Positions 643-58,860 of a stretch of DNA of 64,000 nt are shown here, in pieces; position 1 is the first letter of the stretch, and each line of letters begins with the position of its first letter. The notes beneath the pieces were generated by a model that was not told the origin of the DNA, ran no database searches, and saw only the letters and a list, made by a program, of their open reading frames with translations. The stretch is from Lingula anatina (Eukaryota > Animalia > Brachiopoda). The position numbers were made by a program, and so were the translations under genes. The stretch spans positions 28,668,503 through 28,732,502 of the forward strand of contig CM120640.1 in the NCBI GenBank assembly GCA_051362555.1, in the 5' to 3' direction.

Positions 643-3481
643 ATGGCTTCAGTTGATCCAAATGATTTAGCTGGTGATTTAACTCAAAACTTGGAAAACT
701 CCTTAAAAGAAGAAAAGGCCAGAAATGAATCAGACTCAGATAAAAAATCCTTCATCAAAGATGATAATTATGGTATTAATAAAAAGGATTATCATGAAAA
801 TGAAAACTCTCAGCATCAAAAATGCGAAACTGATGTACCAGTAGATGAAGTTGAAGCAGGAGAAAGTGACTCTGATGTAGATAAATGTACAAAACCGGAT
901 GAGAATGATATAGTTGTAGATGAGGAATACATGAAGAAATTAGAAGAAAAAATGTCAGAAGAAGAAAAACAGGTATAAATAATAAAGTACTTTTTAAAAC
1001 TGTATTTACCTCTTTAAGGCATCGAAGATAGAAGCTATGGAAAATGGGTATCTCTAAATGGTGCAATACATTGCAAAACGGCCAAACACAGTGCAATGCA
1101 CATGAATAAACAAGTCCAGTTGCAAGTATACATGATAAATGGTCATTTCAAACAAAATGAGGTGATACAAAAGATATTAAAATATATTGCTAATTGATTA
1201 ATATTGTTGTTGCAACTTAAAGGGATAATAACTCTTCGTACGAGATCTATATTTCACAATAAAAACCTTGTGAATAACTCATAGAAATATAATATATTCT
1301 GTTTTACCACAAAAACAGCAGTTATAGATTTTATTCTGATATCTAAACTTGTCTTTAGACCACGTGACCTCCATTGATGTCTATACTCTGTTAAAATCTC
1401 TTAAGAGATTTTAACAAAAAACCAAACTTTTTAGAAAAAAACCAGGGACTAACTTTGAATGTAAAAATGGATTCATTAACCATTGGTAAGTATGGGAAAA
1501 TTGTTGTTTACTCCAGGAAAATTCATTTTTTGGCCGAAATGAAGAGTTATTATTGCTTTAACAAATCATGCTGGTAATATTATGAAGAAGAGTCACTCTC
1601 TGCCATTGGCTGCCGACCCAACAATATACAAGTCTCACCAATTTGTTAAATTATATCAGCGGTATTAATTATCTAGTAATATGTATATATTTTTTTATAT
1701 CACCCTTTTTTGTTTGGAATATCTTTTTTTTTTTTCAGTGTATTGTACTGTGTTGCGCTATATTGTGGTGTATTGCACAATTTAGGCAGACCACTTGAAA
1801 ATATATTGTTAATACAGTTTATTTATGATCAAATAAAATTTATTTGAATTAAAGCAAATGCAGTATGTATTCCTAAATGATTTTTTTAGGTAAGAAAAGA
1901 TGAAGCCCAGGCACTTAAAGCAAATGGGAACAGCCACTTTAAGGCCAGTGAGTTTCAACTTGCTATTTGCTCATATACCCAGGCACTCCAGACATGTCCA
2001 CTTTGTTTTCAAAAGGAAAGGGCTATCATGTATTCCAACAGAGCTGCATGTAGACTCCATTTAGTAAGTTTTTGAGTTATTATTATTATTATTATTATTA
2101 TTATTGAAGTTAAAGGGATAATAACTCTTCGTATGAGATCTATATTTCACAATAAAAACCTTGTGAATAACTCATAGAAATATAATATATTCTGTTTTAC
2201 CACAAAAACAGCAGTTATAGCTATTATTCTGATATCTGAGCTTGTCTTTAGACCACGTGACCTCCATTGATGGCTATACTCTGTTAAAATCTCTTAAGAG
2301 ATTTTAACAAAAAAACAAACTTTTTAGAAAAAAACCAGGGACCAACTTTGAATGTAAAAATGGATTCATTAACCTTTGGAAAGTATGGGAAAATTGTTGT
2401 TTACTCCAGGAAAATTCATTTTTTGGCCGAAACAAAGAGTTATTATTGCTTTAAGCAATTTCAATTGATAGAATGATTTCCCTAGATTGGTTCACTATTT
2501 AAAATATATAATTTAAACAATATTTTATAACAAAAACTGTGATAATTTTTCTTCGTTTAAAGATTGATACAAGGTATGTATTAAGGGCATTTTCTTTGAG
2601 GCATTTGAAAAAAAACTCTTTTCAGAAACAGTACGAAAAGGCTATTGAAGACTGTACCAAAGCACTAGAACTTAATCCTAATTATCTCAAAGCACTTTTA
2701 AGGAGGGCAGAAATGTATGAAAAGACTGAAAAATTAGATGAGGCATTAGAGGATTACAAAAAAGTAATTGAAATGGATCCAACACAACATACTGCAAGGG
2801 AAGCATGTATTGTAAGTCTGGTATCATAAAAACAGTCTCAAATACTTTAGATTTGTGTTACATGGTTTTCTGTAATGTGTCAATGTGTAGTAAGTGAAAT
2901 ATAAAAATGGTGTTCGTATATGTTTAAAAGCATTGCAAATTTGCAATAGAAAAAAATGCTAATAGTACTAAAATGTAACAGTGCAATATTCACTTAAATT
3001 TAAAGATATTGAAATAATTTCAAGTCAGCATATTGTTTTTATTCATAAGAGAACTAATCAGTGAACTTTTGAATCTGATTTAATCTATGTTTATTTTCAT
3101 CTCTTCAGCGATTGCCACAGCAAATTACAGAAAGAAATGAGAAAATGAAAGATGAAATGATAGGTAATTTTTATCTTCAGTCCTACATTTTGAAATATTT
3201 CACATTACAGCAAAATCTTTTAGACTGGTCTTCTGCTCTTTGATTTCAATAAAAATCAACATATTTATTAAAAATTTGATTCTTGAAACATTTGAGTTTT
3301 GTATTAATCTTATCATTCAGAGCAATAGTGGAAGTATTTACATTTTCTCATTCTAGGAAAGTTAAAAGAACTGGGGAACATGGTACTAAAACCCTTTGGA
3401 ATGTCTACTGACAATTTCAAATTACAGCAAGATCCAAATACAGGATCATATTCTGTGCAGTTTCAACAAAATGCAAAATAG
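643..3481 (+). CDS. TTC1: Tetratricopeptide repeat protein 1 (TPR co-chaperone), intact, 289 aa
   Basis: join(643..972,1890..2063,2626..2811,3109..3163,3357..3481) = 870 nt, all introns GT-AG, frame continuous. Acidic N-terminus, then [58 protein letters not shown] / [62 protein letters not shown] / [18 protein letters not shown] / [41 protein letters not shown]. This matches the TPR motifs and the characteristic GKLK.LGN..L.PFG.ST.NF...QD..TGSYS C-terminus of metazoan TTC1. Confidence 0.96.
1047..1792. mobile_element. Old foldback/MITE-like element in TTC1 intron 2, defined by ~55-bp degenerate inverted arms
   Basis: 1047-1101 (ggtatctctaaatggtgcaatacattgc...aacacagtgcaatgcac) is an imperfect reverse complement of 1738-1792 (gtgtattgtactgtgttg...gtattgcacaatttaggcagacc). 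A younger MITE is nested inside. Confidence 0.5.
1217..1561 (+). mobile_element. Non-autonomous DNA transposon (Kolobok-like MITE), ~337 bp plus TTAA TSDs
   Basis: TTAA|AGGGATAATAACTCTTCG ... GAAGAGTTATTATTGCT|TTAA. TTAA TSD with purine (AG) termini fits Kolobok rather than piggyBac (CCY termini). Near-identical copies at 2110-2454 and, inverted, at 10598-10943. Confidence 0.85.
2110..2454 (+). mobile_element. Kolobok-like MITE, second copy, in TTC1 intron 3
   Basis: Same TIRs, TTAA TSD and body as 1217-1561. It is absent from the duplicated intron-3 copies (e.g. ~12908-12921 reads gaagtgtagcaatt). Confidence 0.85.
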
Positions 3482-4160
3482 ATTTAAAAAAAATATCAAG
3501 GGTGGTGATCCTTTATACCACAAGTAAAAGTTTTCCATGTATTTGTCCAGTCAGAAGAAGCTGCAATTAGAACTTTTCTAAAATAGAGAACGTAGCTGGC
3601 TTTATCATCCTTCAGATGCCTTAAATGGTTTAGCTCAGTAGCAAGGATTGTTCTGATATTTATCAACTTGTTTAAAAGGGTACCACACAGCAGATATTCT
3701 TAACATAAGCCAACAAAAAACTATAAAGGATAAAGATAAGAATTTGCTTGATTGGCAAAATGACTGCTCAGGCATGGTTTTTTTTAAATATTAATTTAAG
3801 GTGATTTTAAAATATTTCCTGCCAAAATGAAGCCTTGATGCCCATATCTTGTCTGTCTACATAAGGAAGCAGTGCTGTGTCATCAATAGGTGCTGATGGT
3901 GAGAGAAAATCTGATTGTGAATAGAGTAATACAAAACGCCTTTTAAACTTTTTGAGCAAGCAGGAAGGAAAAGACATCTATTTACCCAAGAGAAAGAAAT
4001 GCAGATTGTCCTTAGAGCACAGATTCTTTTTATATCTGTTTGAGTTAAAGAAAACAGTTTATTGCCTCATTCACAATCAGTTTAGTTGGTTGTAGTTCAC
4101 TTGGATAAAAGACTGATTGCAACAATAAAATAATGCAATTTATTGTCTCCATGTGATTTC

Positions 4161-4164
<4 letters not shown>

Positions 4165-4218
<54 letters not shown>
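4165..4218. repeat. (AT)n microsatellite, ~27 units
   Basis: Perfect AT run, expanded only in U1. The other units have a short interrupted version (e.g. ~14546-14572). Confidence 0.95.
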
Positions 4219-4221
<3 letters not shown>

Positions 4222-4532
4222 ATGTACATAACTTTTGACATAAATATTATAAATGTACAAATTAAGCAACTGATGCTGCAAAACAAATAATAATAATAAT
4301 GAACAACTTTTTATATATATTTACCATGGTATTCTATTTACATTACATATGTACAAACATGAAACAAAATTTCATGTTTACTATATACAACCTGAACAAG
4401 TAAAAGCTCTCAAGATTGTTCATAATGTCCATTGCAGTTAATGGGTGCATATACATGGGTGGCATTTCATGTATGTACAGTGTTTATTTTTTTCATTCAG
4501 TTTTTATGAAAAAAAAAGGAAATACAGTCAGT

Positions 4533-6393
4533 TTAGTAGCGGACTAACTGGCGAAGCTTGGTGATAATCCAAGATTTTAGTTTCTTCATCCTACTGATTA
4601 TAGCTGTCCTCCTGGGCTTGGACACTATATATAAAGAAAAAGCATATATGTGAAATGAGGCTCATATTATCTCTTTGAAAAATTTCACTGAGGTATACTC
4701 TTCACATCTGGATACTTATACAGATACCAAATTTAGAACGGGAATGATTAAGAAGAATGTAAAAAAATTTACATTGAATTCTGCTAGTTGTTGAAAAATG
4801 AAACAAAATACCTTTTCCCTCTGTAGTTGGAGCTAAGTTTTCATCATCAAGAGGGATTTCTACAAATCCTGTGAAAAAATAAAAATTAGTGTCAAGGCGT
4901 GATATCATGGTGCCGTATTAGAATTGTAGTTGTATTTGTGTAAGGAAAGGATCTTTTCTATTAGAATACAATTTGTTAAATACGCTTTGCTTGGGTGAAA
5001 AAAAAAAGGTAGAATTACCTTTGCACTTCACAACATTTGAGTAGCTAACTGTCGTTTATGAAAAAAATGTGAACAATTTTGGATTTCATTTTTGCTTCTA
5101 TGATGTTAAGCCATGAGACTTTACCTTGATCAATACTGCTTTCCCTTTCCCAAAATGTGCGACAGCCAAAGGTAGAATCTGTCTGCACAAACACAGCCTC
5201 TCTCTGTACCCGCTCTGGGGCTAGAACACCGCTGCTAGGTGTAAGTTTTCTCAGGTGATAGATGCCCTCCACAGCTGAAAAAAGATAAAATCATGGAAAT
5301 TTTTGCCGCTAAATACAAGCTATATTAATAAATGAATGGAAAGGGTCCATATCTGCTTTAGAAAAAACAATCATAAAAATTCCTTGTATCTCAGGCATTT
5401 GTTTTATACTATTTCCAATGCTGAAAATTTACAAACATGAAGGTAGGCTTTTACCTTGAAGTACACAGTCATCTTTTCCAAAATATGTACAGCAGCCATT
5501 TGTGGAAACTGCCTGTACAAATACATTGTCTTTTTGTTCCTGCTTTGGAACTAGAACAGCAACACTGGGTGTACTGTTTTGTGGATGGTAAATGCCCTTA
5601 AGGACTGGAAATGAAAAATAAATATTGATTCATTCATCTTTAATAACAGTCATATCAAGAATAAAAGATGTACTTCTGATTTTGAAATACTTCAGATGCA
5701 AACAGATGCCCATAGCTATTTTCTCACCTTTTTCATCACTCCATCTTTCTATCATTTCCATAACAAAGGACTCCAATTTTAACATTTTAAACTGAAAATG
5801 TTGAGAAAATAAAAAACAAAATAAAAAATTAAATAAACATAAAATAAAAAGAATAGATATTTTTTTTAAAAAATGAAAGAAAGTAAGAAAAAGAAAGACA
5901 GATAAAAATAATCAAACCAATGGATAACAATGGAAGCAAATATAAATGTTATGACAGATAATTCCAACTCAAAGTAACGTCATTAAAGGAAATCTAGGAA
6001 ACTTTCAAAACGTACGTAAGATAAAACCCCAATCAAGGAAGTTTTCGATAAAAACAATTTATTTGGCTTGTCTTAATTTGGTGTTTATTTACTTTATTTT
6101 CGAAGGTTCTTCTGCTGTTTTTTTTTATTATTTATTTTGTTCAATTTTTAAAACTTTCAAACGTCCAAAGCTGTAGATCTAAATGTCCGGGAGAAGGTTT
6201 TGCATATAGCCGTACGAAAATTTCTTTTGCCGATTTTTCGTAAAATGTATGCCCACATGCATAAAAAACATTTAGGAAGAAAAGTAACTGGCGTGATTTA
6301 ATAACTCTAACATATAAAACATCATAAAAATATTATCGTCTTCGATTAAATGAAAATATCTTCCTGAATTTTTTCGATACTCACCTCGCTCAT
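4533..6393 (-). CDS. Uncharacterised spliced orphan gene, copy 1 (~173 aa): two 50-aa repeats, acidic FVEIPL motif, cationic amphipathic C-terminus
   Basis: complement(join(4533..4624,4812..4868,5125..5274,5455..5604,5728..5791,6385..6393)) = 522 nt. All introns are GT-AG with pyrimidine tracts, and the last four are phase 1. Protein: MSEFKMLKLESFVMEMIERWSDEKVLKGIYHPQNSTPSVAVLVPKQEQKDNVFVQAVSTNGCCTYFGKDDCVLQAVEGIYHLRKLTPSSGVLAPERVQREAVFVQTDSTFGCRTFWERESSIDQGFVEIPLDDENLAPTTEGKVSKPRRTAIISRMKKLKSWIITKLRQLVRY*. The first 9-nt coding exon is less certain; an alternative ATG lies at 5785. Confidence 0.8.
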
Positions 6394-7264: not shown

Positions 7265-7988
7265 GATCCAACACAACATGCTGTGGGGGAAGCATGCATT
7301 GTAAGTGTAGTATTACAAATACTGGTCTTAGGTATTGCAGATTTTTGTTATGTTGTGTATTTTTGTGTAGTAAAACCAAATATGAAAAACAAACGGTGTT
7401 CATATGTTTGAAAAACATTGATTTTCAAAAAAGTGCATATAGGAATACAATATTAGAAAACAGAGGTTACCATAGCAATTTGAAGAAAGAAATGATAAAA
7501 TGAAAGATGCACTGATAGGTAAATTTTATTTCAGATATTTTAGCACTACAATACCAGTACATTTTGAAATACTTTATATGAAAGCAAAATGTTTTAGACT
7601 GGTCATCTGCTCATTGATTTTTATAGCAGTCAACATATTTATTAAAATTTTGATTCTTGTTACATTTGAGTTTTGTATTAATCATCTCATTTTTGAGAAT
7701 TTGGTTTTATTGACAGAATTGGCAGCTCTAGCATGGATTTTTAAAAATATCAATTAAGGGTGTTCTTTAAATATTTCCTGCCAAAATAAATTCTGGATGC
7801 CAAAATCTGATATCTGTCTACAAAGGAGAGTGGTGATTTGTGCTCAATAGGTGCTGTTGGTGAGAGCAAATCGGATTGCAAGTAAAGTGATAAGAAAAGC
7901 ACCATTTTTACTTTTTGTTTTCAGCAAGCAGAGGAGAATAGACATCTATTTTCTTAAGATGAAGAAATGCAGATTGTCCTTAGAGCAG
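7265..7988 (+). pseudogene. Old, decayed TTC1 3' relic (end of exon 4, intron 4, exon 5, part of intron 5, 3' UTR); repeated in every unit
   Basis: gatccaacacaacatgctgtgggggaagcatgcatt|gtaagt resembles the TTC1 exon 4 end. gaaagaaatgataaaatgaaagatgcactgatag|gtaaattt resembles exon 5. 7710-7988 resembles 3750-4020. Many substitutions and deletions. Confidence 0.8.
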
Positions 7989-8272
7989 GGGTTTCTGCAG
8001 GATTTGCATCACAGTAGGTCAACATTCCAAAACGTTGATCTGTAATTTGGTAATTTGGTCACCAATTTACAAGAAATTCAACTACAAATATACTGTCATT
8101 CCTAAATATTTCATAAGCCATCCAGCCTTTTTTTTTTTTGAAAAACATAGGTTGTCTATTGTACTAAATGAACACTGGATGGCTATCTGGGAAAAGTCTT
8201 GCCTTAGAGTCAATTTGATCTTTTTATATCTTGTAACACAGCTTCAGGTATAAGATAACAATATGTGGCCTC

Positions 8273-10515
8273 TTTCAGTCTCTTTAAATATAAAAATTTA
8301 GTGATTGTAGGCCATCGCCGTCGTCGCCGTCGCTGTGCACTCAGCGATAACATGGTAAGTGGAATACCGTTTTACATTTTATATTCAAATTTACAGAACT
8401 GATGAATATTCATAATACGCAGGTCAAGTTCAAAAATCAGCATGATCGGGCCATTTTTAGGGAAGTTATGCTGTTTTTTCACTTTTTTTAGCATTATTAT
8501 AACACCGATAACACGATAAGTGAAAAACATTCTTACTTTTTGGCTATAAAAATGTAGTGATTGTAGGCCATCGCCGTCGTCGCCGTTGCTGTGCACTCAG
8601 CGATAACACAATAAGTGAAAAATCGTTTTACCTTTTGGCTTGAAACTTACAGAATTGATGAATATTTATAATACACAGGTCAAATTTGAAAATCAGCATG
8701 ATCGGGCCATTTTAAGGGAAGTTATGCGGTTTTTTCACTTTTTTCAGCATATATGCAGCACTGATAACACAATATAAGATTAACAGATGGGCAAATTGTC
8801 ATTATACTCACAGGACTGGTCAATCTTACTAAAACGTAGGATGAGTTGGAAAAGCAGCATAATCGTGCCATTATTTTAGATGTTATGCTGTTTTTCACAT
8901 TTCCTCAGATTCAATTCTTAAGCATGTTAACAGTCTCATTATTGAACTAATAAGATACGTAAAAGTGTTTGTTTGACATTTCCTGCATCTTTATAACATT
9001 GTTAGTTGATTATGTAAAAATGATGGTAAACTTGTTATTGTGTATTATGTTATAAAGTGTCAAAAATGGAAATAAACTCATATCATTGCAGTTTGTCAGA
9101 TTCAATCATCTACTATCTTCAGAATCTCAGAATGGAGGAAATTGGACATTTAACACTGTTCTATTGATATTTTCCCATCTCATCAATTTTCTTAGTTGAT
9201 CATATAAAAATGTCAGTAAGCAGTTTATTTTGGGTTTTTTTTTCACTTATTTTAGGATTTTTATAACACCTATAACATAATAAGTGAAAAACATTTTTAC
9301 TTTTTGGCTTCAAACTTATAGAACTGATGAATGTTCATAAATCGCAGGTCAAGTTTGAAAATCAGCATTATCGGGTCAATTTTATGGAAGCTAAGAACTT
9401 CCACTTCTAAGAACTTTTCACTTTTTTCAGCATATATGCAGCACTGATAACACAATAAGTGAAAAACCGTTTTACCTTTTAGCTTGAAACTTACAGAACT
9501 GATGAATATTTATAATACGCAGGTCGAGTTCGAAAATCGGCATGATCGGGCCATTTTAAGGGAAGTTATGCTGTTTTTTCACTTTTTCAGCATATATGCA
9601 GCACTGATAACACAATATAAGATTAACAGATCTGCCAATTGTCATTATACTCACAGGACTAGTCAATCTTATTAAAAGGTAGGATGAGTTCGAAAATCAG
9701 CATAATCGGGCCATTATTTTAAAAGTTATGCTGTTTTTTCACATTTCCTCAGATTCAATTGTTAGGCATGTTAACAGTCTCATTATTGAACTAATAAGAT
9801 ACGTAAAAGTGTTTGTTTGACATTTCCTGCATCTTTATAACATTGTTAGTTGATTATGTAAAAATGATGATAAACTTGTTATTGTGTATTATGTTATAAA
9901 GTGTCAAAAATGGAAATAAACTCATATCATTGCAGTTTGTCAGATTCAAACATCTACTATCTTCAGAATCTCAGAATGGAGGAAACTGGACATTTAAAAT
10001 TGTTCTATTGATATTTTTCCTATGTCAACAATTTTCTCAGTTGTTCATTTAAAAATGACAGTAAATTGATTATTTTGTTATATGAAAAAAAGGTGTTGAA
10101 AATAGAAAGAAAATCAGTTCAATACAGTTATCTCTTGTATACATTTTGGCATTTTGAAAGTGTGACTCTGAACTTCCATGGCCTTGAAGACCTTTCCATG
10201 GCACATTTTCTGTATATCCATGATACTTTTATTTTATTATTAAAAATTGATGGTCATTATGTTATATTGCATAAAAGTTGAAGAAAACCCTATTTTGGAA
10301 ATGGCTGCCGTAATGACCATTAAGGAAAAACCATGTTACTTATGATACTCAAACTTACTGAAAAGTTTCGTAAGACTGACGTGCAGTTTGTGTTGGAAAA
10401 TCAGTGTGATTGTTTTCTGTTTTGGAAGCAATGCAGCTCTATAGAGTGCTATATGGGGCTACTGTTTATGGATGGTGGTAATTGTCCCTTGGGGTAGTCA
10501 CAAGCTAAATTCAGA
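8273..10515 (+). mobile_element. Helentron/HINE (DINE-1-like) non-autonomous element with internal ~150-bp tandem repeats; copies at ~18643-20951, 32310-34618, 42739-45047, 53966-56274
   Basis: A 5' (CGT/CGC)n microsatellite (gccgtcgtcgccgtcg) is followed by repeated monomers gaaacttacagaactgatgaatatt..ataatacgcaggtcaagttcgaaaatcagcatgatcgggccatttt..ggaagttatgctgttttttcactttt. There is a larger internal duplication (~8600-9200 vs ~9430-10040) and an imperfect 3' hairpin near 10478-10501. Boundaries are approximate; the family call rests on architecture only. Confidence 0.55.
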
Positions 10516-10597
10516 GCTATTAAATCATTTGCCTAATTAATTTCCAAGTGCCCATTAAATAAGATTACATAAAACACACGTTGAGATTTCCCATAGG

Positions 10598-10943
10598 TTA
10601 AAGGGATAATAACTCTTCGTTTTGGCCAAAAAATGAATTTTCCTGGAGTAAACAACAATTTTCCCATACTTACCAATGATTAATGAATCCATTTTTACAT
10701 TCAAATTTAGTCCTTGGTTTTTTTCTAAAAAGTTTGGTTTTTTTGTTAAAATCTCTTAAGAGATTATAACAGAGTATAGCCATCAGTGGAGGTCACGTGA
10801 TCTTAAGACAAGCTCAGATATCAGAATAATAGCTATAACTGCTGTTTTCGTCGTAAAACAGAATATATTATATTTCTATGAGTTATTTACAATGTTTTTA
10901 TTGTGAAATATAGATTTCATACGAAGAGTTATTATCCCTTTAA
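10598..10943 (-). mobile_element. Kolobok-like MITE, inverted copy with perfect TIRs
   Basis: TTAA|AGGGATAATAACTCTTCGT ... ACGAAGAGTTATTATCCCT|TTAA; the body is the reverse complement of 1217-1561. Confidence 0.88.
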
Positions 10944-12282
10944 GCTCTCTTAACTGTGTTACATAATTAGGAATCTGTGATAATTATGCAGGTAAATGTT
11001 GTTTAATATTGCAAATAAGTTAACAAAAGAAAAAATAATTTGAATAACAGTGCCTTATTATCCTCAAACACATTGGGGTTATTCATATCATGTTATTACA
11101 GCAAGATTAAAAGTTTGAATAGCAGCTTTAATGGGATATTTTTGTTTTGTTTTCTTTTTAATTTATTTTTCAAACATTTCAAGCATTTTCAGCTCCCATC
11201 CACCTGAAGCTCTTCACATTTTCTGTATTTCCACGTAAGCAGTTGCATTGGTTTTTATGTCTTTAAACATTATGTAATATTATTTTATGCACTGTCATCA
11301 TTATTCAAATATTGGGATTTTCATTATGTGAATTTGGTCCTGAAACTGTAATCTTATTGCAGGGGCAGATTGAGACTGTCTTCTGGGTCTTTCAGATTTT
11401 AAAGTTCACATTGATGGGTATCTGTTTTTTCTGTTGGAAGACCATCAAAAATGTAGGATGGATCAACAAAGATAATTTGGAATACTGTCAGAAAATATCC
11501 CTGGATCCGCTCCTGTTATTGACGATGTCACCTGTTGTGCATGATTAAAATTCAGTGTTGATTGACAGTGCTATTGTAGGCATGATTTATCATTGCATTA
11601 AAATTGACAAAAGGAACCATTTTCTGCATTTTTATTTTCTGTTTTTGTCTGTACATTTGACAGCTTTGCTGCCTTGTTTTTTTTTTTTTTTTTTTTTTTT
11701 TGTTTAAACATAGGTTGTCTATTGTACTAAATGAACACTGGATGGCTATCTGGGAAAAGTCTTGCCTTAGAGTCAATTTGATCTTTTTACGTCTTGTAAC
11801 ACAGCTTCAGGTATAAGATAACAATATGTGGCCTCTTTCAGTCTCTATAAATATAAAAATGTAGTGATTGTAGCTTGGATAAATGATTGACTGTTACAAG
11901 TAAATTAATGAATGCAATTTTTTACATGCTTTCTTTTATTCAAAATATAAATTATATATATGAAATATGCATGATTTGAGGAGAATTGACATCAGTATCA
12001 TAAGTAATACAAATTCAGCAATTTATGTTGTAAAAAAAGAAATAATATTTAATGTTGTATATACTTTACATACTGTATATATGTATGCTATTCTATTTAC
12101 ATATGTACAAATATTATGAAACAAAATTACATGTTTATTATGTACAATTTGTACAAGCTCTTTCTGGAATGCTAATAAAATCCCTTCAAAACTGCAGTGA
12201 ATGGATGCATATACATGTACATGGCTATTTGTTTATGCACAATGTCCAAGTGATTTTTCTCATACAGTTGTGAACAGTCATT

Positions 12283-12664
12283 TCAGTATTTGACTAGCTG
12301 TCGCAGCTTGGTCATCATCCAAAACTTAAATTTCTTCATCCTGCTAAGGCTATAAGGATGGGTGTCTTCCTGGGCTTGGACACTATATATCAAGGAAAAA
12401 GTTTATATGTAAAATGGGGCACATATTTTCTCTGTAAAGAATTTTATTAAGACATATTTATAGATCTTGATTATAATGCACTTGGGATGATTATAAAACC
12501 ATCTAACTCACTTGTTACAACTTACTTTACATTCAAATCTGCCATCACCCAATTGAAAATAATTTAATTGTTTTATAAAATTTGAACACAATACCTTAAT
12601 TCTCCCTCAGTAGATGTACCTAATTTTTCATCGTCATCATCATCAAGATCAATTTCTACAAACC
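12283..12664 (-). other. Diverged paralogous terminal exon pair (D'/E') of the orphan gene: alternative 3' exons or a truncated paralog; copies at 25952-26333, 36387-36768, 46817-47198, 58043-58424
   Basis: complement(join(12283..12382,12595..12664)), GT-AG intact. Reads GFVEIDLDDDDDEKLGTSTEGELSVQAQEDTHPYSLSRMKKFKFWMMTKLRQLVKY*. Downstream, 11875-12280 is homologous to the orphan gene's 3' region (4095-4530). Confidence 0.7.
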
Positions 12665-12773
12665 CTGGTGGGAAAAAAGAAATATTTGAAAATTTTGATT
12701 CTTGAAACATTTGAGTTTTGTATTAATCTTATCATTCACAGCAATTCTAAGTATTTATATTTTCTCATTCTAG

Positions 12774-12880
12774 GAAAGTTAAAAGAACAGGGGAACATGG
12801 TACTAAAGCCCTTCAAATGGAATGTCTACTGACAATTTCAAATCACAGCAAGATCCAAATACAGGACCATATTCTGTGCA
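12774..12880 (+). pseudogene. Frameshifted TTC1 exon 6 copy at the unit junction (also before 26550, 36985, 47415, 58641)
   Basis: TTCTAG|GAAAGTTAAAAGAACAGGGGAACATGG... has a 4-nt insertion after the PF codons, giving [19 protein letters not shown]. It is fused directly to the TTC1 intron-3 donor GTAAGT. Confidence 0.85.
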
Positions 12881-13100
12881 GTAAGTTTTTGAGTTATTAT
12901 TATTATTGAAGTGTAGCAATTTCAGTTGATAGAATGATTTCCCTAGATTGGTTCACTATTTAAAATATATAATTTAAACAACATTTTATGACTGTGATAA
13001 TTTTTCTTTGTTTAAAGGTTGTGTTCAATTTGGCATGCATTGATACAAGGTATATATTAAGGGTGTTTTCTTTGAGGCATTTGAAAAAAACTCTTTTCAG

Positions 13101-13955
13101 AAACAGCACGAAAAGGCTATTGAAGACTGTACCAAAGCACTAGAACTTAATCCTAATTATCTCAAAGCACTTTTAAGGAGGGCAGAAATGTATGAAAAGA
13201 CTGAAAAATTAGATGAGGCATTAGAGGATTACAAAAAAGTAATTGAAATGGATCCAACACAACATACTGCAAGGGAAGCATGTATTGTAAGTCTGGTATC
13301 ATAAAAACAGTCTCAAATACTTTAGATTTGTGTTACATGGTTTTCTGTAATGTGTCAATGTGTAGTAAGTGAAATAAAAAAAAAATGATGTTCATATATG
13401 TTTAAAAGCATCGCAATAGAAAAAAAATGCTAAAGTGCTAAAGTGTAACAGTGCAATATTCACTTAAATTTAAAGATATTAAAATAATTACAAGTCAGCA
13501 AATTGTTTTTATTCATAAGAGAACTAATCAGTGAACTTTTGAATCTGATTGAATCTGTGTTTATTTTCATCTCTTCAGCGATTGCCACAGCAAATTACAG
13601 AAAGAAATGAGAAAATGAAAGATGAAATGATGGGTAATTTATATCTTTCAGTCCTACATTTTGAAATATTTTACAATAAAGCAAAATCTTTTAGACTGGT
13701 CTTCTGCTCTTTGATTTCAATAAAAATCAACATATTTATTTAAAATTTGATTTATGAAACATTTGAGTTTTGTATTCATCTTTTCATTCAGAGCAATAGT
13801 GGAAGTATTTATATTTTCTCATTCTAGGAAAGTTAAAAGAACTGGGGAACATGGTACTAAAGCCCTTTGGAATGTCTACTGACAATTTCAAATTACATCA
13901 AGATCCAAGCACAAGTTTTCCATGTATTTGTCCAGTCAGAAGAAGCTGCAATTAG
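13101..13955 (+). pseudogene. TTC1: Headless TTC1 fragment (exons 4-6), U2
   Basis: Exons 13101..13286, 13579..13633 and 13828..13955 with intact splice sites. Exon 6 has a deletion removing the native stop and ends ...[21 protein letters not shown]. No exons 1-3 in the unit. Confidence 0.85.
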
Positions 13956-14882
13956 AACTTTTCTAAAATAGAGAACATAGCTGGCTTCATCATCCTTTAG
14001 ATGCCTTAAATAGTTTAGCTCAGTAGCAAGATTATTCTGATATTTATCAACTTGTTTAAAAGGTTACCACACAGCAGATATTCTTAACATAAGCCAACAA
14101 AAAACTATAAAGGATAAAGATAAGAATTTGCTTGATTGGCAAAATGACTGCTCAGGCCTTTATTTTTTAAATATTAATTTAAGGTGATTTTAAAATATTT
14201 ACTGCCAAAATGAAGCCTTGATGCCCATTTCTTGTCTGTCTACATAAGGAAGCAGTGCTGTGTCATCAATAGGTGCTGATGGTGAGAGAAAATCTGATTG
14301 TGAATAGAGAAATACAAGACGCCTTTTAAACTTTTTGAGCAAGCAGGAAAGAAAAGACATCTATTTACCCAAGAGAAAGAAATGCAGATTGTCCTTAGAG
14401 TACAATTCTTTTTATATCTGTTCGAGTTAAAGAAAACAATTTATGGCCTCATTCACAGTCTCATTTGAGTTGGTTGTAGTTCACTTGAATAAAAGACTGA
14501 TTGCAACAATAAAATAATCCAATTTATTGTCTTTATGTGATTTCTTTATTATAAATAAAATTATATATATAAATGATATGTACATAACTTTTGACATAAA
14601 TATTATAAATGTGTACAAATTAAGCAACTGATGCTGCAAAACAATAATAATGAACAACTTTTTATATATATTTACCATGGTATTCTATTTAACATATGTA
14701 CAAACATGAAACAAAATTTCATGTTTACTATATACAACGTGAACAAGTAAAAGCTCTCAAGATTGTTCATAATGTCCATTGCAGTTAATGGGTGCATATA
14801 CATGGGTGGCGTTTCATGTATGTACAGTGTTTTTTTCATTCAGTTTTTATGAAAAAAGAAAAGAAAAGGAAGAACAGTCAGT

Positions 14883-16716
14883 TTAGTAACGGATTAACTG
14901 TCTCAGCTTTGTGAGTATCCAATATTTTATTTTCTTCATCCTACTTAGTATAGCTTTCCTTTGGGGCTTGGACACTATATAAAGGAAAAGCATATATGTG
15001 AAATGAGGCTCATATTATCTCTTTGATAAATTTCATTGAGGTATTCTCTTCACATCTTGATACTTATACACATACCAAATTTAGAACGGGAATGTTAAGA
15101 AGAATGGAAAAAAATTTACATTGAATTCTGCTAGTTGTTGAATAATGAAATAAAATACCTTTTCCCTCTGTAGTCGGAGCTAATTTTTCATCATCAAGAG
15201 GGATTTCTACAAATCCTGTGGAAAAACAAAAATTACTGTCAAGGCTTAATATCATGGTGCCGTATTAGAATTGTAGTTATATTTGTGTAAGGAAGGGATC
15301 TTTTCTATTAGAATACAATTTGTTAAATATGCTTTGCTTGGGTGAAAAAAAAGTAGAATAACTTTTGCACTTCACAACATTTGAGAAGCTAACTGTCATT
15401 TAAGAAAAAAAAGTTCTGAACAGTTTTGGGTTTCATATTTATATGTTAGATTAAAGTCCTGATACTGTACCTTGATCAATACTGCTTTCCTTTTCCCAAA
15501 ATGTTCGACAGCCAAAGGTAGAATCTGTCTGCACAAACACAGCCTCTCTCTGTACCCGCTCTGGGACTAGAACACCGCTGCTGGGTGTAAGTTTCCTCAG
15601 GTGATAGATGCCCTCCACAGCTGAAAAAAGGTACAAGCTATATTAATAAATGAATGGAAAGGGTCCATATCTGCATTAGAAAAACAATCATAAAAATTTC
15701 ATGTATCTCAGGCATTTGTTTTATACTATTTCCAACACTGCAAATTTACAAGCATGGAGGGAGGCTTTTACCTTGAAGTACACAGTCATCTTTTCCAAAA
15801 AATGTACAGCAGCCATTTGTGGAAACTGCCTGTACAAATACATTGTCTTTTTGTTCCTGCTTTGGAACTAGAACAGCAACACTGGGTGTACTGTTTTGTG
15901 AATGGTAAATGCCCTTAAGGACTGGAAATGAAAAATAAATATTGATGTTAGATTCATTCATCTTTAATAACAGTCATATCAAGAATAAAAGATGTACTTC
16001 TGATTTTGAAATACTTCAGATGCAAACAGATGCCCATAGCTATTTTCTCACCTTTTTCATCACTCCATCTTTCTATCATTTCCATAACAAAGGACTCCAA
16101 TTTTAACATTTTAAACTGAAAATGTTGAGAAAATAAAAAACAAAATAAAAAATTAAATAAAAAAAAAATAAGAAAAAGAATAAATAATTTTTTTTAAAAA
16201 TGAAAGAAAGTAAGAAAAAGAAAGACAGATAAAAATAATTAAACCAATGGATAACAATGAAAGCAAATATAAATGTTATGACAGATAATTCCAACTCAAA
16301 GTAACATTAAAGGAAATCTAGGAAACTTTCAAAACGTACGTAAGATAAAACCCAATCAAGGAAGTTTTCGATAAAAACAATTTATTTGGCTTGTCTTAAT
16401 TTGGTGTTTATTTCCTTTATTTTCGAAGGTTTTCTGCTGTTTTTTTTTAAATTTAATTTTGTTTAATTTTTTAAAACTTTTAAACGTCCAAAGCTGTAGA
16501 TCTAAATGTCCGCGAGAAGTTTTTGCATATAGCCGTACGAAAAATTCTTTTGCCGATTTTTCGTAAAATGTATGCCCACATGCATAAAAAACATTTAAGA
16601 AGAAAAGTAACTGGCGTGATTTAATTACTCTAACATATAAAACATCATAAAAATATTATCGTCTTCGATTAAATGAAAATATCTTCCTGAATTTTTTCGA
16701 TACTCACCTCGCTCAT
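14883..16716 (-). CDS. Orphan gene, copy 2 (intact)
   Basis: complement(join(14883..14974,15159..15215,15471..15620,15772..15921,16052..16115,16708..16716)); same exon sizes and splice sites as copy 1; C-terminus VSKPQRKAILSRMKKIKYWILTKLRQLIRY*. Confidence 0.78.
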
Positions 16717-25792: not shown

Positions 25793-26769
25793 AAATTACA
25801 TGTTTATTATGTACAATTTGTACAAGCTCTTTCTGGAATGCTAATAAAATCCCTTCAAAACTGCAGTGAATGGATGCATATACATGTACATGGCTATTTG
25901 TTTATGCACAATGTCCAAGTGATTTTTCTCATACAGTTGTGAACAGTCATTTCAGTATTTGACTAGCTGTCGCAGCTTGGTCATCATCCAAAACTTAAAT
26001 TTCTTCATCCTGCTAAGGCTATAAGGATGGGTGTCTTCCTGGGCTTGGACACTATATATCAAGGAAAAAGTTTATATGTAAAATGGGGCACATATTTTCT
26101 CTGTAAAGAATTTTATTAAGACATATTTATAGATCTTGATTATAATGCACTTGGGATGATTATAAAACCATCTAACTCACTTGTTACAACTTACTTTACA
26201 TTCAAATCTGCCATCACCCAATTGAAAATAATTTAATTGTTTTATAAAATTTGAACACAATACCTTAATTCTCCCTCAGTAGATGTACCTAATTTTTCAT
26301 CGTCATCATCATCAAGATCAATTTCTACAAACCCTGGTGGGAAAAAAGAAATATTTGAAAATTTTGATTCTTGAAACATTTGAGTTTTGTATTAATCTTA
26401 TCATTCACAGCAATTCTAAGTATTTATATTTTCTCATTCTAGGAAAGTTAAAAGAACAGGGGAACATGGTACTAAAGCCCTTCAAATGGAATGTCTACTG
26501 ACAATTTCAAATCACAGCAAGATCCAAATACAGGACCATATTCTGTGCAGTAAGTTTTTGAGTTATTATTATTATTGAAGTGTAGCAATTTCAGTTGATA
26601 GAATGATTTCCCTAGATTGGTTCACTATTTGAAATATATAATTTAAACAACATTTTATGACTGTGATAATTTTTCTTTGTTTAAAGGTTGTGTTCAATTT
26701 GGCATGCATTGATACAAGGTATATATTAAGGGTGTTTTCTTTGAGGCATTTGAAAAAAACTCTTTTCAG

Positions 26770-35046: not shown

Positions 35047-37200
35047 GCTCTCTTAACTGTGTTACATAATTAGGAATCTGTGATAATTATGCAGGTAAAT
35101 GTTGTTTAATATTGCAAATAAGTTAACAAAAGAAAAAATAATTTGAATAACAGTGCCTTATTATCCTCAAACACATTGGGGTTATTCATATCATGTTATT
35201 ACAGCAAGATTAAAAGTTTGAATAGCAGCTTTAATGGGATATTTTTGTTTTGTTTTCTTTTTAATTTATTTTTCAAACATTTCAAGCATTTTCAGCTCCC
35301 ATCCACCTGAAGCTCTTCACATTTTCTGTATTTCCACGTAAGCAGTTGCATTGGTTTTTATGTCTTTAAACATTATGTAATATTATTTTATGCACTGTCA
35401 TCATTATTCAAATATTGGGATTTTCATTATGTGAATTTGGTCCTGAAACTGTAATCTTATTGCAGGGGCAGATTGAGACTGTCTTCTGGGTCTTTCAGAT
35501 TTTAAAGTTCACATTGATGGGTATCTGTTTTTTCTGTTGGAAGACCATCAAAAATGTAGGATGGATCAACAAAGATAATTTGGAATACTGTCAGAAAATA
35601 TCCCTGGATCCGCTCCTGTTATTGACGATGTCACCTGTTGTGCATGATTAAAATTCAGTGTTGATTGACAGTGCTATTGTAGGCATGATTTATCATTGCA
35701 TTAAAATTGACAAAAGGAACCATTTTCTGCATTTTTATTTTCTGTTTTTGTCTGTACATTTGACAGCTTTGCTGCCTTGTTTTTTTTTTTTTTTTTTTTT
35801 TTTTTGTTTAAACATAGGTTGTCTATTGTACTAAATGAACACTGGATGGCTATCTGGGAAAAGTCTTGCCTTAGAGTCAATTTGATCTTTTTACGTCTTG
35901 TAACACAGCTTCAGGTATAAGATAACAATATGTGGCCTCTTTCAGTCTCTATAAATATAAAAATGTAGTGATTGTAGCTTGGATAAATGATTGACTGTTA
36001 CAAGTAAATTAATGAATGCAATTTTTTACATGCTTTCTTTTATTCAAAATATAAATTATATATATGAAATATGCATGATTTGAGGAGAATTGACATCAGT
36101 ATCATAAGTAATACAAATTCAGCAATTTATGTTGTAAAAAAAGAAATAATATTTAATGTTGTATATACTTTACATACTGTATATATGTATGCTATTCTAT
36201 TTACATATGTACAAATATTATGAAACAAAATTACATGTTTATTATGTACAATTTGTACAAGCTCTTTCTGGAATGCTAATAAAATCCCTTCAAAACTGCA
36301 GTGAATGGATGCATATACATGTACATGGCTATTTGTTTATGCACAATGTCCAAGTGATTTTTCTCATACAGTTGTGAACAGTCATTTCAGTATTTGACTA
36401 GCTGTCGCAGCTTGGTCATCATCCAAAACTTAAATTTCTTCATCCTGCTAAGGCTATAAGGATGGGTGTCTTCCTGGGCTTGGACACTATATATCAAGGA
36501 AAAAGTTTATATGTAAAATGGGGCACATATTTTCTCTGTAAAGAATTTTATTAAGACATATTTATAGATCTTGATTATAATGCACTTGGGATGATTATAA
36601 AACCATCTAACTCACTTGTTACAACTTACTTTACATTCAAATCTGCCATCACCCAATTGAAAATAATTTAATTGTTTTATAAAATTTGAACACAATACCT
36701 TAATTCTCCCTCAGTAGATGTACCTAATTTTTCATCGTCATCATCATCAAGATCAATTTCTACAAACCCTGGTGGGAAAAAAGAAATATTTGAAAATTTT
36801 GATTCTTGAAACATTTGAGTTTTGTATTAATCTTATCATTCACAGCAATTCTAAGTATTTATATTTTCTCATTCTAGGAAAGTTAAAAGAACAGGGGAAC
36901 ATGGTACTAAAGCCCTTCAAATGGAATGTCTACTGACAATTTCAAATCACAGCAAGATCCAAATACAGGACCATATTCTGTGCAGTAAGTTTTTGAGTTA
37001 TTATTATTATTGAAGTGTAGCAATGTTGATAGAATGATTTCCCTAGATTGGTTCACTATTTGAAATATATAATTTAAACAACATTTTATGACTGTGATAA
37101 TTTTTCTTTGTTTAAAGGTTGTGTTCAATTTGGCATGCATTGATACAAGGTATATATTAAGGGTGTTTTCTTTGAGGCATTTGAAAAAAACTCTTTTCAG

Positions 37201-45475: not shown

Positions 45476-47634
45476 GCTCTCTTAACTGTGTTACATAATT
45501 AGGAATCTGTGATAATTATGCAGGTAAATGTTGTTTAATATTGCAAATAAGTTAACAAAAGAAAAAATAATTTGAATAACAGTGCCTTATTATCCTCAAA
45601 CACATTGGGGTTATTCATATCATGTTATTACAGCAAGATTAAAAGTTTGAATAGCAGCTTTAATGGGATATTTTTGTTTTGTTTTCTTTTTAATTTATTT
45701 TTCAAACATTTCAAGCATTTTCAGCTCCCATCCACCTGAAGCTCTTCACATTTTCTGTATTTCCACGTAAGCAGTTGCATTGGTTTTTATGTCTTTAAAC
45801 ATTATGTAATATTATTTTATGCACTGTCATCATTATTCAAATATTGGGATTTTCATTATGTGAATTTGGTCCTGAAACTGTAATCTTATTGCAGGGGCAG
45901 ATTGAGACTGTCTTCTGGGTCTTTCAGATTTTAAAGTTCACATTGATGGGTATCTGTTTTTTCTGTTGGAAGACCATCAAAAATGTAGGATGGATCAACA
46001 AAGATAATTTGGAATACTGTCAGAAAATATCCCTGGATCCGCTCCTGTTATTGACGATGTCACCTGTTGTGCATGATTAAAATTCAGTGTTGATTGACAG
46101 TGCTATTGTAGGCATGATTTATCATTGCATTAAAATTGACAAAAGGAACCATTTTCTGCATTTTTATTTTCTGTTTTTGTCTGTACATTTGACAGCTTTG
46201 CTGCCTTGTTTTTTTTTTTTTTTTTTTTTTTTTTTGTTTAAACATAGGTTGTCTATTGTACTAAATGAACACTGGATGGCTATCTGGGAAAAGTCTTGCC
46301 TTAGAGTCAATTTGATCTTTTTACGTCTTGTAACACAGCTTCAGGTATAAGATAACAATATGTGGCCTCTTTCAGTCTCTATAAATATAAAAATGTAGTG
46401 ATTGTAGCTTGGATAAATGATTGACTGTTACAAGTAAATTAATGAATGCAATTTTTTACATGCTTTCTTTTATTCAAAATATAAATTATATATATGAAAT
46501 ATGCATGATTTGAGGAGAATTGACATCAGTATCATAAGTAATACAAATTCAGCAATTTATGTTGTAAAAAAAGAAATAATATTTAATGTTGTATATACTT
46601 TACATACTGTATATATGTATGCTATTCTATTTACATATGTACAAATATTATGAAACAAAATTACATGTTTATTATGTACAATTTGTACAAGCTCTTTCTG
46701 GAATGCTAATAAAATCCCTTCAAAACTGCAGTGAATGGATGCATATACATGTACATGGCTATTTGTTTATGCACAATGTCCAAGTGATTTTTCTCATACA
46801 GTTGTGAACAGTCATTTCAGTATTTGACTAGCTGTCGCAGCTTGGTCATCATCCAAAACTTAAATTTCTTCATCCTGCTAAGGCTATAAGGATGGGTGTC
46901 TTCCTGGGCTTGGACACTATATATCAAGGAAAAAGTTTATATGTAAAATGGGGCACATATTTTCTCTGTAAAGAATTTTATTAAGACATATTTATAGATC
47001 TTGATTATAATGCACTTGGGATGATTATAAAACCATCTAACTCACTTGTTACAACTTACTTTACATTCAAATCTGCCATCACCCAATTGAAAATAATTTA
47101 ATTGTTTTATAAAATTTGAACACAATACCTTAATTCTCCCTCAGTAGATGTACCTAATTTTTCATCGTCATCATCATCAAGATCAATTTCTACAAACCCT
47201 GGTGGGAAAAAAGAAATATTTGAAAATTTTGATTCTTGAAACATTTGAGTTTTGTATTAATCTTATCATTCACAGCAATTCTAAGTATTTATATTTTCTC
47301 ATTCTAGGAAAGTTAAAAGAACAGGGGAACATGGTACTAAAGCCCTTCAAATGGAATGTCTACTGACAATTTCAAATCACAGCAAGATCCAAATACAGGA
47401 CCATATTCTGTGCAGTAAGTTTTTGAGTTATTATTATTATTGAAGTGTAGCAATTTCAGTTGATAGAATGATTTCCCTAGATTGGTTCACTATTTGAAAT
47501 ATATAATTTAAACAACATTTTATGACTGTGATAATTTTTCTTTGTTTAAAGGTTGTGTTCAATTTGGCATGCATTGATACAAGGTATATATTAAGGGTGT
47601 TTTCTTTGAGGCATTTGAAAAAAACTCTTTTCAG

Positions 47635-56702: not shown

Positions 56703-58860
56703 GCTCTCTTAACTGTGTTACATAATTAGGAATCTGTGATAATTATGCAGGTAAATGTTGTTTAATATTGCAAATAAGTTAACAAAAGAAAAAATAATTT
56801 GAATAACAGTGCCTTATTATCCTCAAACACATTGGGGTTATTCATATCATGTTATTACAGCAAGATTAAAAGTTTGAATAGCAGCTTTAATGGGATATTT
56901 TTGTTTTGTTTTCTTTTTAATTTATTTTTCAAACATTTCAAGCATTTTCAGCTCCCATCCACCTGAAGCTCTTCACATTTTCTGTATTTCCACGTAAGCA
57001 GTTGCATTGGTTTTTATGTCTTTAAACATTATGTAATATTATTTTATGCACTGTCATCATTATTCAAATATTGGGATTTTCATTATGTGAATTTGGTCCT
57101 GAAACTGTAATCTTATTGCAGGGGCAGATTGAGACTGTCTTCTGGGTCTTTCAGATTTTAAAGTTCACATTGATGGGTATCTGTTTTTTCTGTTGGAAGA
57201 CCATCAAAAATGTAGGATGGATCAACAAAGATAATTTGGAATACTGTCAGAAAATATCCCTGGATCCGCTCCTGTTATTGACGATGTCACCTGTTGTGCA
57301 TGATTAAAATTCAGTGTTGATTGACAGTGCTATTGTAGGCATGATTTATCATTGCATTAAAATTGACAAAAGGAACCATTTTCTGCATTTTTATTTTCTG
57401 TTTTTGTCTGTACATTTGACAGCTTTGCTGCCTTGTTTTTTTTTTTTTTTTTTTTTTTTTTGTTTAAACATAGGTTGTCTATTGTACTAAATGAACACTG
57501 GATGGCTATCTGGGAAAAGTCTTGCCTTAGAGTCAATTTGATCTTTTTACGTCTTGTAACACAGCTTCAGGTATAAGATAACAATATGTGGCCTCTTTCA
57601 GTCTCTATAAATATAAAAATGTAGTGATTGTAGCTTGGATAAATGATTGACTGTTACAAGTAAATTAATGAATGCAATTTTTTACATGCTTTCTTTTATT
57701 CAAAATATAAATTATATATATGAAATATGCATGATTTGAGGAGAATTGACATCAGTATCATAAGTAATACAAATTCAGCAATTTATGTTGTAAAAAAAGA
57801 AATAATATTTAATGTTGTATATACTTTACATACTGTATATATGTATGCTATTCTATTTACATATGTACAAATATTATGAAACAAAATTACATGTTTATTA
57901 TGTACAATTTGTACAAGCTCTTTCTGGAATGCTAATAAAATCCCTTCAAAACTGCAGTGAATGGATGCATATACATGTACATGGCTATTTGTTTATGCAC
58001 AATGTCCAAGTGATTTTTCTCATACAGTTGTGAACAGTCATTTCAGTATTTGACTAGCTGTCGCAGCTTGGTCATCATCCAAAACTTAAATTTCTTCATC
58101 CTGCTAAGGCTATAAGGATGGGTGTCTTCCTGGGCTTGGACACTATATATCAAGGAAAAAGTTTATATGTAAAATGGGGCACATATTTTCTCTGTAAAGA
58201 ATTTTATTAAGACATATTTATAGATCTTGATTATAATGCACTTGGGATGATTATAAAACCATCTAACTCACTTGTTACAACTTACTTTACATTCAAATCT
58301 GCCATCACCCAATTGAAAATAATTTAATTGTTTTATAAAATTTGAACACAATACCTTAATTCTCCCTCAGTAGATGTACCTAATTTTTCATCGTCATCAT
58401 CATCAAGATCAATTTCTACAAACCCTGGTGGGAAAAAAGAAATATTTGAAAATTTTGATTCTTGAAACATTTGAGTTTTGTATTAATCTTATCATTCACA
58501 GCAATTCTAAGTATTTATATTTTCTCATTCTAGGAAAGTTAAAAGAACAGGGGAACATGGTACTAAAGCCCTTCAAATGGAATGTCTACTGACAATTTCA
58601 AATCACAGCAAGATCCAAATACAGGACCATATTCTGTGCAGTAAGTTTTTGAGTTATTATTATTATTGAAGTGTAGCAATTTCAGTTGATAGAATGATTT
58701 CCCTAGATTGGTTCACTATTTGAAATATATAATTTAAACAACATTTTATGACTGTGATAATTTTTCTTTGTTTAAAGGTTGTGTTCAATTTGGCATGCAT
58801 TGATACAAGGTATATATTAAGGGTGTTTTCTTTGAGGCATTTGAAAAAAACTCTTTTCAG

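What the first reader, a model, noticed from the sequence alone, without database searches (positions are those of the whole stretch)
12283..12664. Second pair of terminal exons whose frame is rescued by compensating frameshifts across an intron
Seen: exon D' is 70 nt versus 57 (+13) and exon E' coding part is 100 nt versus 92 (+8). Either change alone breaks the frame, but together (+21) they restore it. The result keeps GFVEI.LDD and SRMKKFKFWMMTKLRQLVKY* and rewrites only the linker (VSKPRRTAII becomes SVQAQEDTHPYSL). The intron phase shifts from 1 to 2. D'/E' has no upstream exons of its own but lies ~2.2 kb downstream of the next unit's gene on the same strand, with a compatible phase-1 acceptor. 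Inference: either alternative 3' exons giving each gene copy two C-terminal isoforms (basic vs acidic linker), or the remnant of a once-functional paralog. Both readings support selection on the FVEIxL motif and the tail helix.
Basis: partly seen in the sequence, partly recalled or inferred. Interest (0 to 1): 0.78.

Follow-up and report, generated by a model that had tools for sequence, protein, structure and literature searches.

The report
Orphaned gene tail in brachiopod array
In the lamp shell Lingula, two intact-looking exons with a pair of frameshifts that cancel each other are the cut-off rear end of an older sister gene, copied five times inside a tandem repeat; they were likely shaped by selection while that gene was whole and are likely unused passengers now.

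Summary
In detail: D' (70 nt) and E' (100 nt coding) give an open frame together, and each breaks it alone. Only +4 and +8 shift the frame; the other +9 is an in-frame GAT expansion. The gene is a Lingula orphan (LOC106175890) lying tail-to-tail with TTC1. An old duplication (70-78% identity) copied TTC1's 3' part and the gene. A younger rearrangement cut that paralog about 19 nt upstream of D' and joined it to TTC1 intron 4, removing the branch-point-like motif. The 10.4-kb unit was then amplified, giving five identical D'/E' copies. The E' tail changed only conservatively (simulated P 0.002-0.0004), so the paralog was under selection, and the frameshift pair likely arose then. In 4 RNA runs, C>D had 6 reads; no C>D' or D'>E' joint was listed, and D' had zero depth in the three stranded runs. 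Depth is low (upper bound 39%), and one sense read pair lies on E'/UTR'. Verdict: a real compensatory frameshift pair in a truncated paralog, probably a passenger. Use as alternative last exons is unsupported but not excluded.

The parts
12595..12664 (-). Exon D' of the truncated paralog (70 nt): FVEI motif, in-frame +9 GAT expansion, +4 at its 3' end
12383..12594 (-). Intron D'-E' (GT..AG, phase 2), homologous to intron D-E (29-36% diverged)
   Evidence: splicing not seen
12283..12382 (-). Exon E' coding part (100 nt): +8 restoring the frame, then the basic tail and TGA
11874..12282 (-). 3' UTR of the paralog, AATAAA at 12139 and 11940; one sense read pair in run X4
12673..12686 (.). Breakpoint: homology to intron C-D ends about 19 nt upstream of D', and homology to TTC1 intron 4 begins
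12683..12880 (+). Copy of TTC1 intron 4 / exon 5 start (5% diverged, 4-nt frameshift), fused at 12881 to a copy of the TTC1 intron 2 donor
13101..14455 (+). Partial TTC1 duplicate (exons 3-5 and 3' UTR); matches the RefSeq TTC1-like model P0010
14883..16109 (-). Array copy of the orphan gene: exons A 16109-16052, B 15921-15772, C 15620-15471, D 15215-15159, E 14974-14883 (169 aa; B-E = LOC106175890)
   Evidence: C>D joint
7265..8013 (+). Decayed old TTC1 copy, partner of D'/E' in the old duplication; has a splice donor at 8014 used in reads
4533..5785 (-). First (divergent) copy of the orphan gene, without its own D'/E'
643..3481 (+). Full-length TTC1 gene (five coding exons), tail-to-tail with the orphan gene
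25952..26333 (-). D'/E' copy 2, identical
36387..36768 (-). D'/E' copy 3, identical
46817..47198 (-). D'/E' copy 4, identical
58043..58424 (-). D'/E' copy 5, identical

Best explanation
D'/E' is the 3' end of an older paralog of a Lingula orphan gene, cut off about 19 nt upstream of D' by a junction with TTC1 intron 4 and copied five times in a 10.4-kb array; it likely gained its +4/+8 frameshift pair while the paralog was whole and under selection, and is likely a rarely or never spliced passenger now. Step 1 (shown): a block from TTC1 exon 3 to exon D of the orphan gene was duplicated long ago. Step 2 (inferred from conservative changes): the copy kept coding for the basic amphipathic tail. 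Step 3 (inferred): one indel in the soft linker was rescued by a second one across the intron, rewriting about 13 residues and sparing the motif and the tail. Step 4 (junction shown, order inferred): a younger rearrangement removed exons A'-C' from this copy. Step 5 (shown): recent amplification of the unit.
For: Collinear old block: 2776-4887 maps to 7265-12686 in six pieces at 70-78% identity, then switches to a 90% match to TTC1 3251-3461. No A/B/C-like exon lies between D' and E; only short chance words were found. D' has no yTnAy branch-point-like motif between -18 and -45, whereas 7 of the 7 other acceptors tested have one between -18 and -35 (motif recalled). Selection: D+tail pS 0.40-0.46 against pN 0.14-0.15, Fisher P = 0.007. 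The 12 tail sites where D'/E' differs from both other copies give only conservative changes and TAA>TGA (simulated P = 0.002 and 0.0004), and net tail charge is +7 in all three. Timing: about 0.8 indels were expected in 149 nt since truncation and 3 are seen (P = 0.046); compensated open frames arose in 1.9% of neutral runs; +4 alone stops where the +8 sits. RNA: C>D joint 2+4+0+0 reads; no C>D' or D'>E' joint listed; D' bin depth 0 in X1, X2 and X4; in X7 the reads also cover the D'-E' intron. No database protein carries D'/E': 1 hit among 14 candidates, cluster of 1 member, 1 hit in 1.84 billion representatives.
Against: RNA depth is very low: 0 of 6 allows a D' share up to 39%. Only 4 of 9 listed runs were laid, 6-25% of each was read, tissues are unknown, and the D>E joint was not listed either. 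Run X4 holds about 299 sense-strand bases (about one pair) on E'/UTR', about 553 on B/C and none on D/E, which would fit an alternative ending. The D' acceptor, D' donor, E' acceptor and a poly(A) signal are intact. The indels cannot be polarised without an outgroup, and the sites counted as unique to D'/E' include the branch to the other two copies. pN (0.14) is only modestly below the non-coding distance (0.21-0.29). The simulation rates are my own estimates. The full-length paralog was not seen, because no genome is held.
Confidence: 0.66

Rival explanations
1. D'/E' has been recruited as an alternative pair of last exons: transcripts of the neighbouring gene skip D, E and their poly(A) site, splice C to D', and make a 176-aa isoform with an acidic linker.
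For: Phase-compatible acceptor and open frame; one sense pair on E'/UTR' in X4, which has B/C reads and no D/E reads. Earlier notes of this scan report duplicated exons used alternately in this genome (unchecked leads).
Against: 0 of 6 exon-C junction reads and zero D' depth in three stranded runs. Branch-point-like motif lost at the breakpoint. Two AATAAA in E's UTR and four more before D'. The transcript would have to cross TTC1-type exons transcribed on the other strand. No such isoform in the protein collection.
Confidence: 0.14
2. The remnant is dead and the two frameshifts arose after truncation, cancelling by chance; the conserved tail only records earlier selection.
For: The linker still reads conservatively in the old frame (pS 0.375, pN 0.136 against the first copy; simulated P about 0.06), so the shifts are late. 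Two frameshifts cancel half of the time.
Against: Three indels in 149 nt since truncation is unlikely (P = 0.046), and both shifts spare the motif and the tail and avoid the stop; 1.9% in simulation.
Confidence: 0.14
3. The five copies, or the D' junction, are an assembly artefact.
For: Units are 99.5-99.9% identical.
Against: Units carry private insertions (3.2 kb and 0.78 kb). Reads span the array-specific joint 12880>13101 (33 and 41 reads). RefSeq holds both the array-type TTC1 fragment and the array-type gene.
Confidence: 0.03

Closest known systems
Pairs of mutually compensatory frameshifting mutations (pCFMs), Biba, Klink and Bazykin 2022, PMC8935012 (seen: search listing, passages, Conclusions section; author names recalled)
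   Same: Two out-of-frame indels that cancel, placed in a poorly conserved segment and rewriting a short stretch. The paper reports 624 candidate pairs, 6 of high confidence, in vertebrates and insects.
   Different: Here the two indels lie in different exons and change the intron phase; the sequence is a paralog now without 5' exons; the animal is a brachiopod. The paper aligned concatenated exons, and my term search found no passage on pairs in different exons (0 hits for 'different exons').
Partial and chimeric gene structures made by tandem duplication, Rogers, Shao and Thornton 2017, PMC5460883 (seen: abstract and outline only)
   Same: Duplication breakpoints inside genes leave fragments and chimeric transcripts, as seen here for TTC1.
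   Different: Drosophila population duplicates. Here a chimeric use of D'/E' itself was not observed.
LOC106175890 / XP_013413501.1, uncharacterized protein of Lingula anatina (P0006)
   Same: Exons B-E of the array gene are identical to it.
   Different: It uses D/E, not D'/E', and starts inside intron A-B. No function is recorded; 0 papers hold the identifier.
TTC1 (tetratricopeptide repeat protein 1)
   Same: The + strand gene and its fragments on both sides of D'/E'.
   Different: Not part of the D'/E' coding sequence; it supplies the breakpoint and the antisense transcription.

Membership tests
Compensatory frameshift pair (pCFM) | Two indels, each not a multiple of 3, summing to a multiple of 3 | tested here: met
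   +4 and +8
Compensatory frameshift pair (pCFM) | No stop between the two indels; original frame and stop regained | tested here: met
Compensatory frameshift pair (pCFM) | Derived state polarised by an outgroup | tested here: inconclusive
   No outgroup protein found. The old-frame linker reads conservatively, and the +8 resembles a local duplication.
Compensatory frameshift pair (pCFM) | Lies in a gene that is now translated | tested here: inconclusive
   No junction reads at low depth
Alternative last exons | Spliced reads from the shared exon to the distal exon | tested here: inconclusive
   0 of 6 reads, upper bound 39%
Alternative last exons | Intact splice dinucleotides and own poly(A) signal | tested here: met
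Alternative last exons | Branch-point-like motif at the usual distance from the distal acceptor (motif recalled) | tested here: not met
   Nearest yTnAy at -59 for D'; -18 to -35 in 7 of 7 other acceptors
5'-truncated paralog carried in a tandem duplication | Breakpoint inside the gene, with unrelated sequence beyond it | tested here: met
5'-truncated paralog carried in a tandem duplication | Collinear flanks shared with the parental locus | tested here: met
5'-truncated paralog carried in a tandem duplication | Full-length parent elsewhere in the genome | not testable with these tools
   No genome held; no such protein in the collection
LC3-interacting (LIR-type) motif, recalled consensus [WFY]xx[LIV] with acidic flanks | Binding to ATG8-family proteins | not tested
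   FVEI fits the recalled core by eye only; a lead, not a test

The most novel reading that the evidence does not exclude
After losing its own 5' half, the paralog's 3' end was captured as an alternative ending by the neighbouring copy. Every gene in the array then makes two C-termini, a neutral linker or a strongly acidic linker created by a frameshift pair across an intron, in front of the same basic membrane-binding helix, switched by tissue or stage.
Probability: 0.14. Interest if true: 0.5.

Novelty: new member of a known kind. Interest (0 to 1): 0.24.

Why it matters
It is a clean natural example of a compensatory frameshift pair that straddles an intron and changes its phase, and it maps which parts of an orphan brachiopod protein matter (the basic tail helix) and which do not (the linker). 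It also shows how duplication breakpoints leave intact-looking exons that mimic alternative splicing. The impact is modest: both phenomena are known, the protein has no known function, and present use of D'/E' was not seen.

Tried and rejected
No whole genome is held, so the far end of the array could not be read. Homolog searches found only P0006: exon C against longer proteins, 1 of 6 candidates; P0006, 1 of 14; representatives, 1 hit. E' was too short to be searched by itself (32 aa; 39 aa with its open upstream frame). Pfam gave nothing above a curated cut-off for the orphan exons or P0006. The ESM Atlas gave no usable feature hit and TM scores up to 0.36 by query. Single-sequence AlphaFold2 gave mean pLDDT 41.5, with only the C-terminal helix confident, so no fold search was run. 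Earlier findings: none near, none by protein or DNA sequence. Literature: the search for duplicated alternative last exons returned unrelated CDK12 papers; 'compensatory frameshift' + paralog + intron gave 9 papers, 8 listed, seen as listings only; Lingula searches were seen as listings only; no supplements were read, and gene tables there could bear on expression. My first idea, that the orphan gene is nested in a repeat-exon host gene, was dropped: the + strand exons are TTC1 copies and the arrangement is tail-to-tail. Most depth at 12.7-14.4 kb is cross-mapping from the real TTC1 (T at 13107 in 250 of 287 reads in X1, while all 5 array copies have C). One read loose end was not found in the window. 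In one search my TTC1 join was one base off at the last exon; the tblastn rows show that exon intact. One search stopped part-way and was redone.

Full report
Observation. On the minus strand, D' is 12664-12595 (70 nt) and the coding part of E' is 12382-12283 (100 nt), against 57 and 92 nt for D and E, with AG/GT ends. Joined behind exons A-C, D'+E' is open to a stop at the homologous place (176 aa against 169). D+E' and D'+E both stop early. Alignment splits the +13 into an in-frame +9 GAT expansion and a +4 in the last codons of D'; E' has one +8. The frameshift pair is therefore +4/+8, and about 13 linker residues are rewritten. With +4 alone the frame stops exactly where the +8 sits, so a rescuing indel downstream of the +4 had only about 30 nt in which to fall. 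The window holds six copies of the gene and five of D'/E', the latter identical from D' to the stop.

The gene. Exon C matches, at 100%, one protein: LOC106175890 of Lingula anatina, 162 aa. It has no relative among 14 candidates, is alone in its cluster, and is the only hit among 1.84 billion representatives. Pfam, the ESM Atlas and single-sequence AlphaFold2 name no family; only the C-terminal helix (residues 135-161) is modelled with confidence. The 20-residue tail has net charge +7 in all three versions and a higher hydrophobic moment than most shuffles (1.2-5.1% of shuffles reach it). A membrane-binding helix is my inference. FVEI resembles a LIR core (recalled, untested).

What surrounds D'/E'. 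The supposed spacer is TTC1. A full five-exon TTC1 lies at 643-3481 on the + strand, tail-to-tail with the first gene copy; its exon 3 hits vertebrate and mollusc TTC1 at 68-80%. The block 2776-4887 (end of TTC1 exon 3 to exon D) maps collinearly, in six pieces of 70-78% identity, onto 7265-12686, that is onto a decayed TTC1 copy followed by UTR', E' and D'. D'/E' is thus the gene half of an old two-gene duplication. At 12673-12686 this homology ends, about 19 nt upstream of D', and a 90% match to TTC1 intron 4/exon 5 begins (5% substitutions). At 12881 a second junction joins it to TTC1 intron 2. No A/B/C-like exon remains. The cut removed the yTnAy motif that D has at -24; D' has none nearer than -59, while 7 of 7 other acceptors have one at -18 to -35 (motif recalled). 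The 10.4-kb unit was then amplified to 99.5-99.9% identity, with private insertions in two units.

Selection. Over 38 codons in the shared frame, D'/E' against the other copies has pS 0.40-0.46 and pN 0.14-0.15 (Fisher P = 0.007), with non-coding distances of 0.21-0.29. The 12 tail sites where D'/E' differs from both other copies cause only conservative changes and turn TAA into TGA; random placement did as well in 0.2% and 0.04% of 50,000 trials. The D part alone is not significant (P = 0.16), and the old-frame linker is borderline (P about 0.06). These sites include the branch leading to the other two copies, so the test is not strictly lineage-specific. From 28 indels in 2,635 non-coding bases between young duplicates, 0.8 indels are expected in 149 nt since truncation, and 3 or more has P = 0.046. 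In neutral simulation, 32.8% of 20,000 runs kept an open frame, but only 1.9% did so through compensation (rates are my estimates). So an intact frame today needs no current selection, but the frameshift pair more likely arose while the paralog was whole.

RNA. Nine raw-read runs were listed by species label and none was indexed as a holder. I laid 4 of the 9 on 11700-16150, reading 6-25% of each (1065, 998, 125 and 139 reads laid). TTC1's GT..AG joints fix the strand convention in X1, X2 and X4. The gene is weakly expressed: the C>D joint has 2, 4, 0 and 0 reads. No joint 15471>12664 or 12595>12382 is listed (threshold 3 reads), and the D' bin has depth 0 on both strands in X1, X2 and X4. In unstranded X7 about 337 bases cover E', the intron and D', which looks unspliced. 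Against my reading: 0 of 6 allows a share up to 39%; D>E was not listed either; and X4 has about 299 sense bases on E'/UTR', about 553 on B/C and none on D/E. On the opposite strand, reads join the decayed TTC1 copy to a TTC1 exon 3 (66 and 53 reads in X1 and X2) and join 12880 to 13101 (33 and 41); X4 and X7 have none. In the window's layout the first joint would remove D'/E' as part of an intron (inferred). The allele counts at 13107 suggest that these reads come largely from a copy or haplotype not in the window.

Mechanism and rivals. Best reading (0.66): old duplication, selection on the tail, late +4/+8 rescue in the soft linker, truncation by a TTC1 junction, passive amplification. Rivals: recruited alternative last exons (0.14); dead remnant with chance rescue (0.14); assembly artefact (0.03). 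The model predicts that a full-length paralog may lie beyond the right end of the window. Mosaic patches between the first copy and the array gene (exon E 16 of 92 sites against 23 of 589 in flanks, P = 1e-5) hint at unseen paralogs, but this could not be checked.

Comparison with what is known. Compensatory frameshift pairs are described in PMC8935012: 624 candidates, tending to lie in poorly conserved segments of genes under relaxed selection (passages and Conclusions read). This case meets the two sequence criteria; polarity and present translation are inconclusive. Fragments and chimeras left by tandem duplication are described in PMC5460883 (abstract and outline). The identifier LOC106175890 occurs in 0 papers of the searched library. 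Earlier notes of this scan hold nothing on this locus; two report alternately used duplicate exons elsewhere in this genome, which I took only as a prior for the rival.

Verdict. A real feature and a new member of a known kind. Interest 0.24; 0.5 if the isoform switch were shown.

Noticed in passing
window 7984-8014 + and 12774-14455 +: Chimeric + strand transcripts splice a decayed TTC1 3' UTR, or an exon-5 copy, onto TTC1 exon 3 (66/53 and 33/41 reads in X1/X2; 0 in X4/X7). This suggests sample-specific expression or copy-number variation of the array.
   Followed up: partly
window 14974-14883 versus 4624-4533; also 15475-15426: Exon E differs at 16 of 92 sites between the first copy and the array gene while flanks differ at 23 of 589 (P = 1e-5), with conservative changes and many C>A. 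A second divergent patch (13 of 50) starts intron C-D. This looks like gene conversion from unseen paralogs.
   Followed up: partly
window 15921-15772 and 15620-15471: Exons B and C are two 150-nt phase-1 copies of one module (about 45% amino-acid identity), each with a GC pair near its end; no family found.
   Followed up: partly
window 16109-16052 versus 15961: The RefSeq model P0006 starts inside intron A-B; an upstream exon A with ATG gives a 169-aa frame. No A>B joint was listed.
   Followed up: no
window 22562-25792: A 3.2-kb internally repeated insertion in the 3' UTR of the second D'/E' copy only.
   Followed up: partly
window 51466-52245: A 780-nt insertion upstream of one gene copy, with short inverted ends and a duplicated target of about 9-10 nt; it looks like a small DNA transposon.
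   Followed up: no
window 8311-11690: A 3.4-kb repeat-rich insert between 183-nt direct repeats separates the decayed TTC1 from UTR'; it holds a 346-nt element also found, inverted, at 1216-1562 and 2110-2454.
   Followed up: no
P0010 versus window 13080-13952: The RefSeq TTC1-like model (149 aa) is the array's truncated TTC1; its first 20 residues have no match in the window.
   Followed up: no
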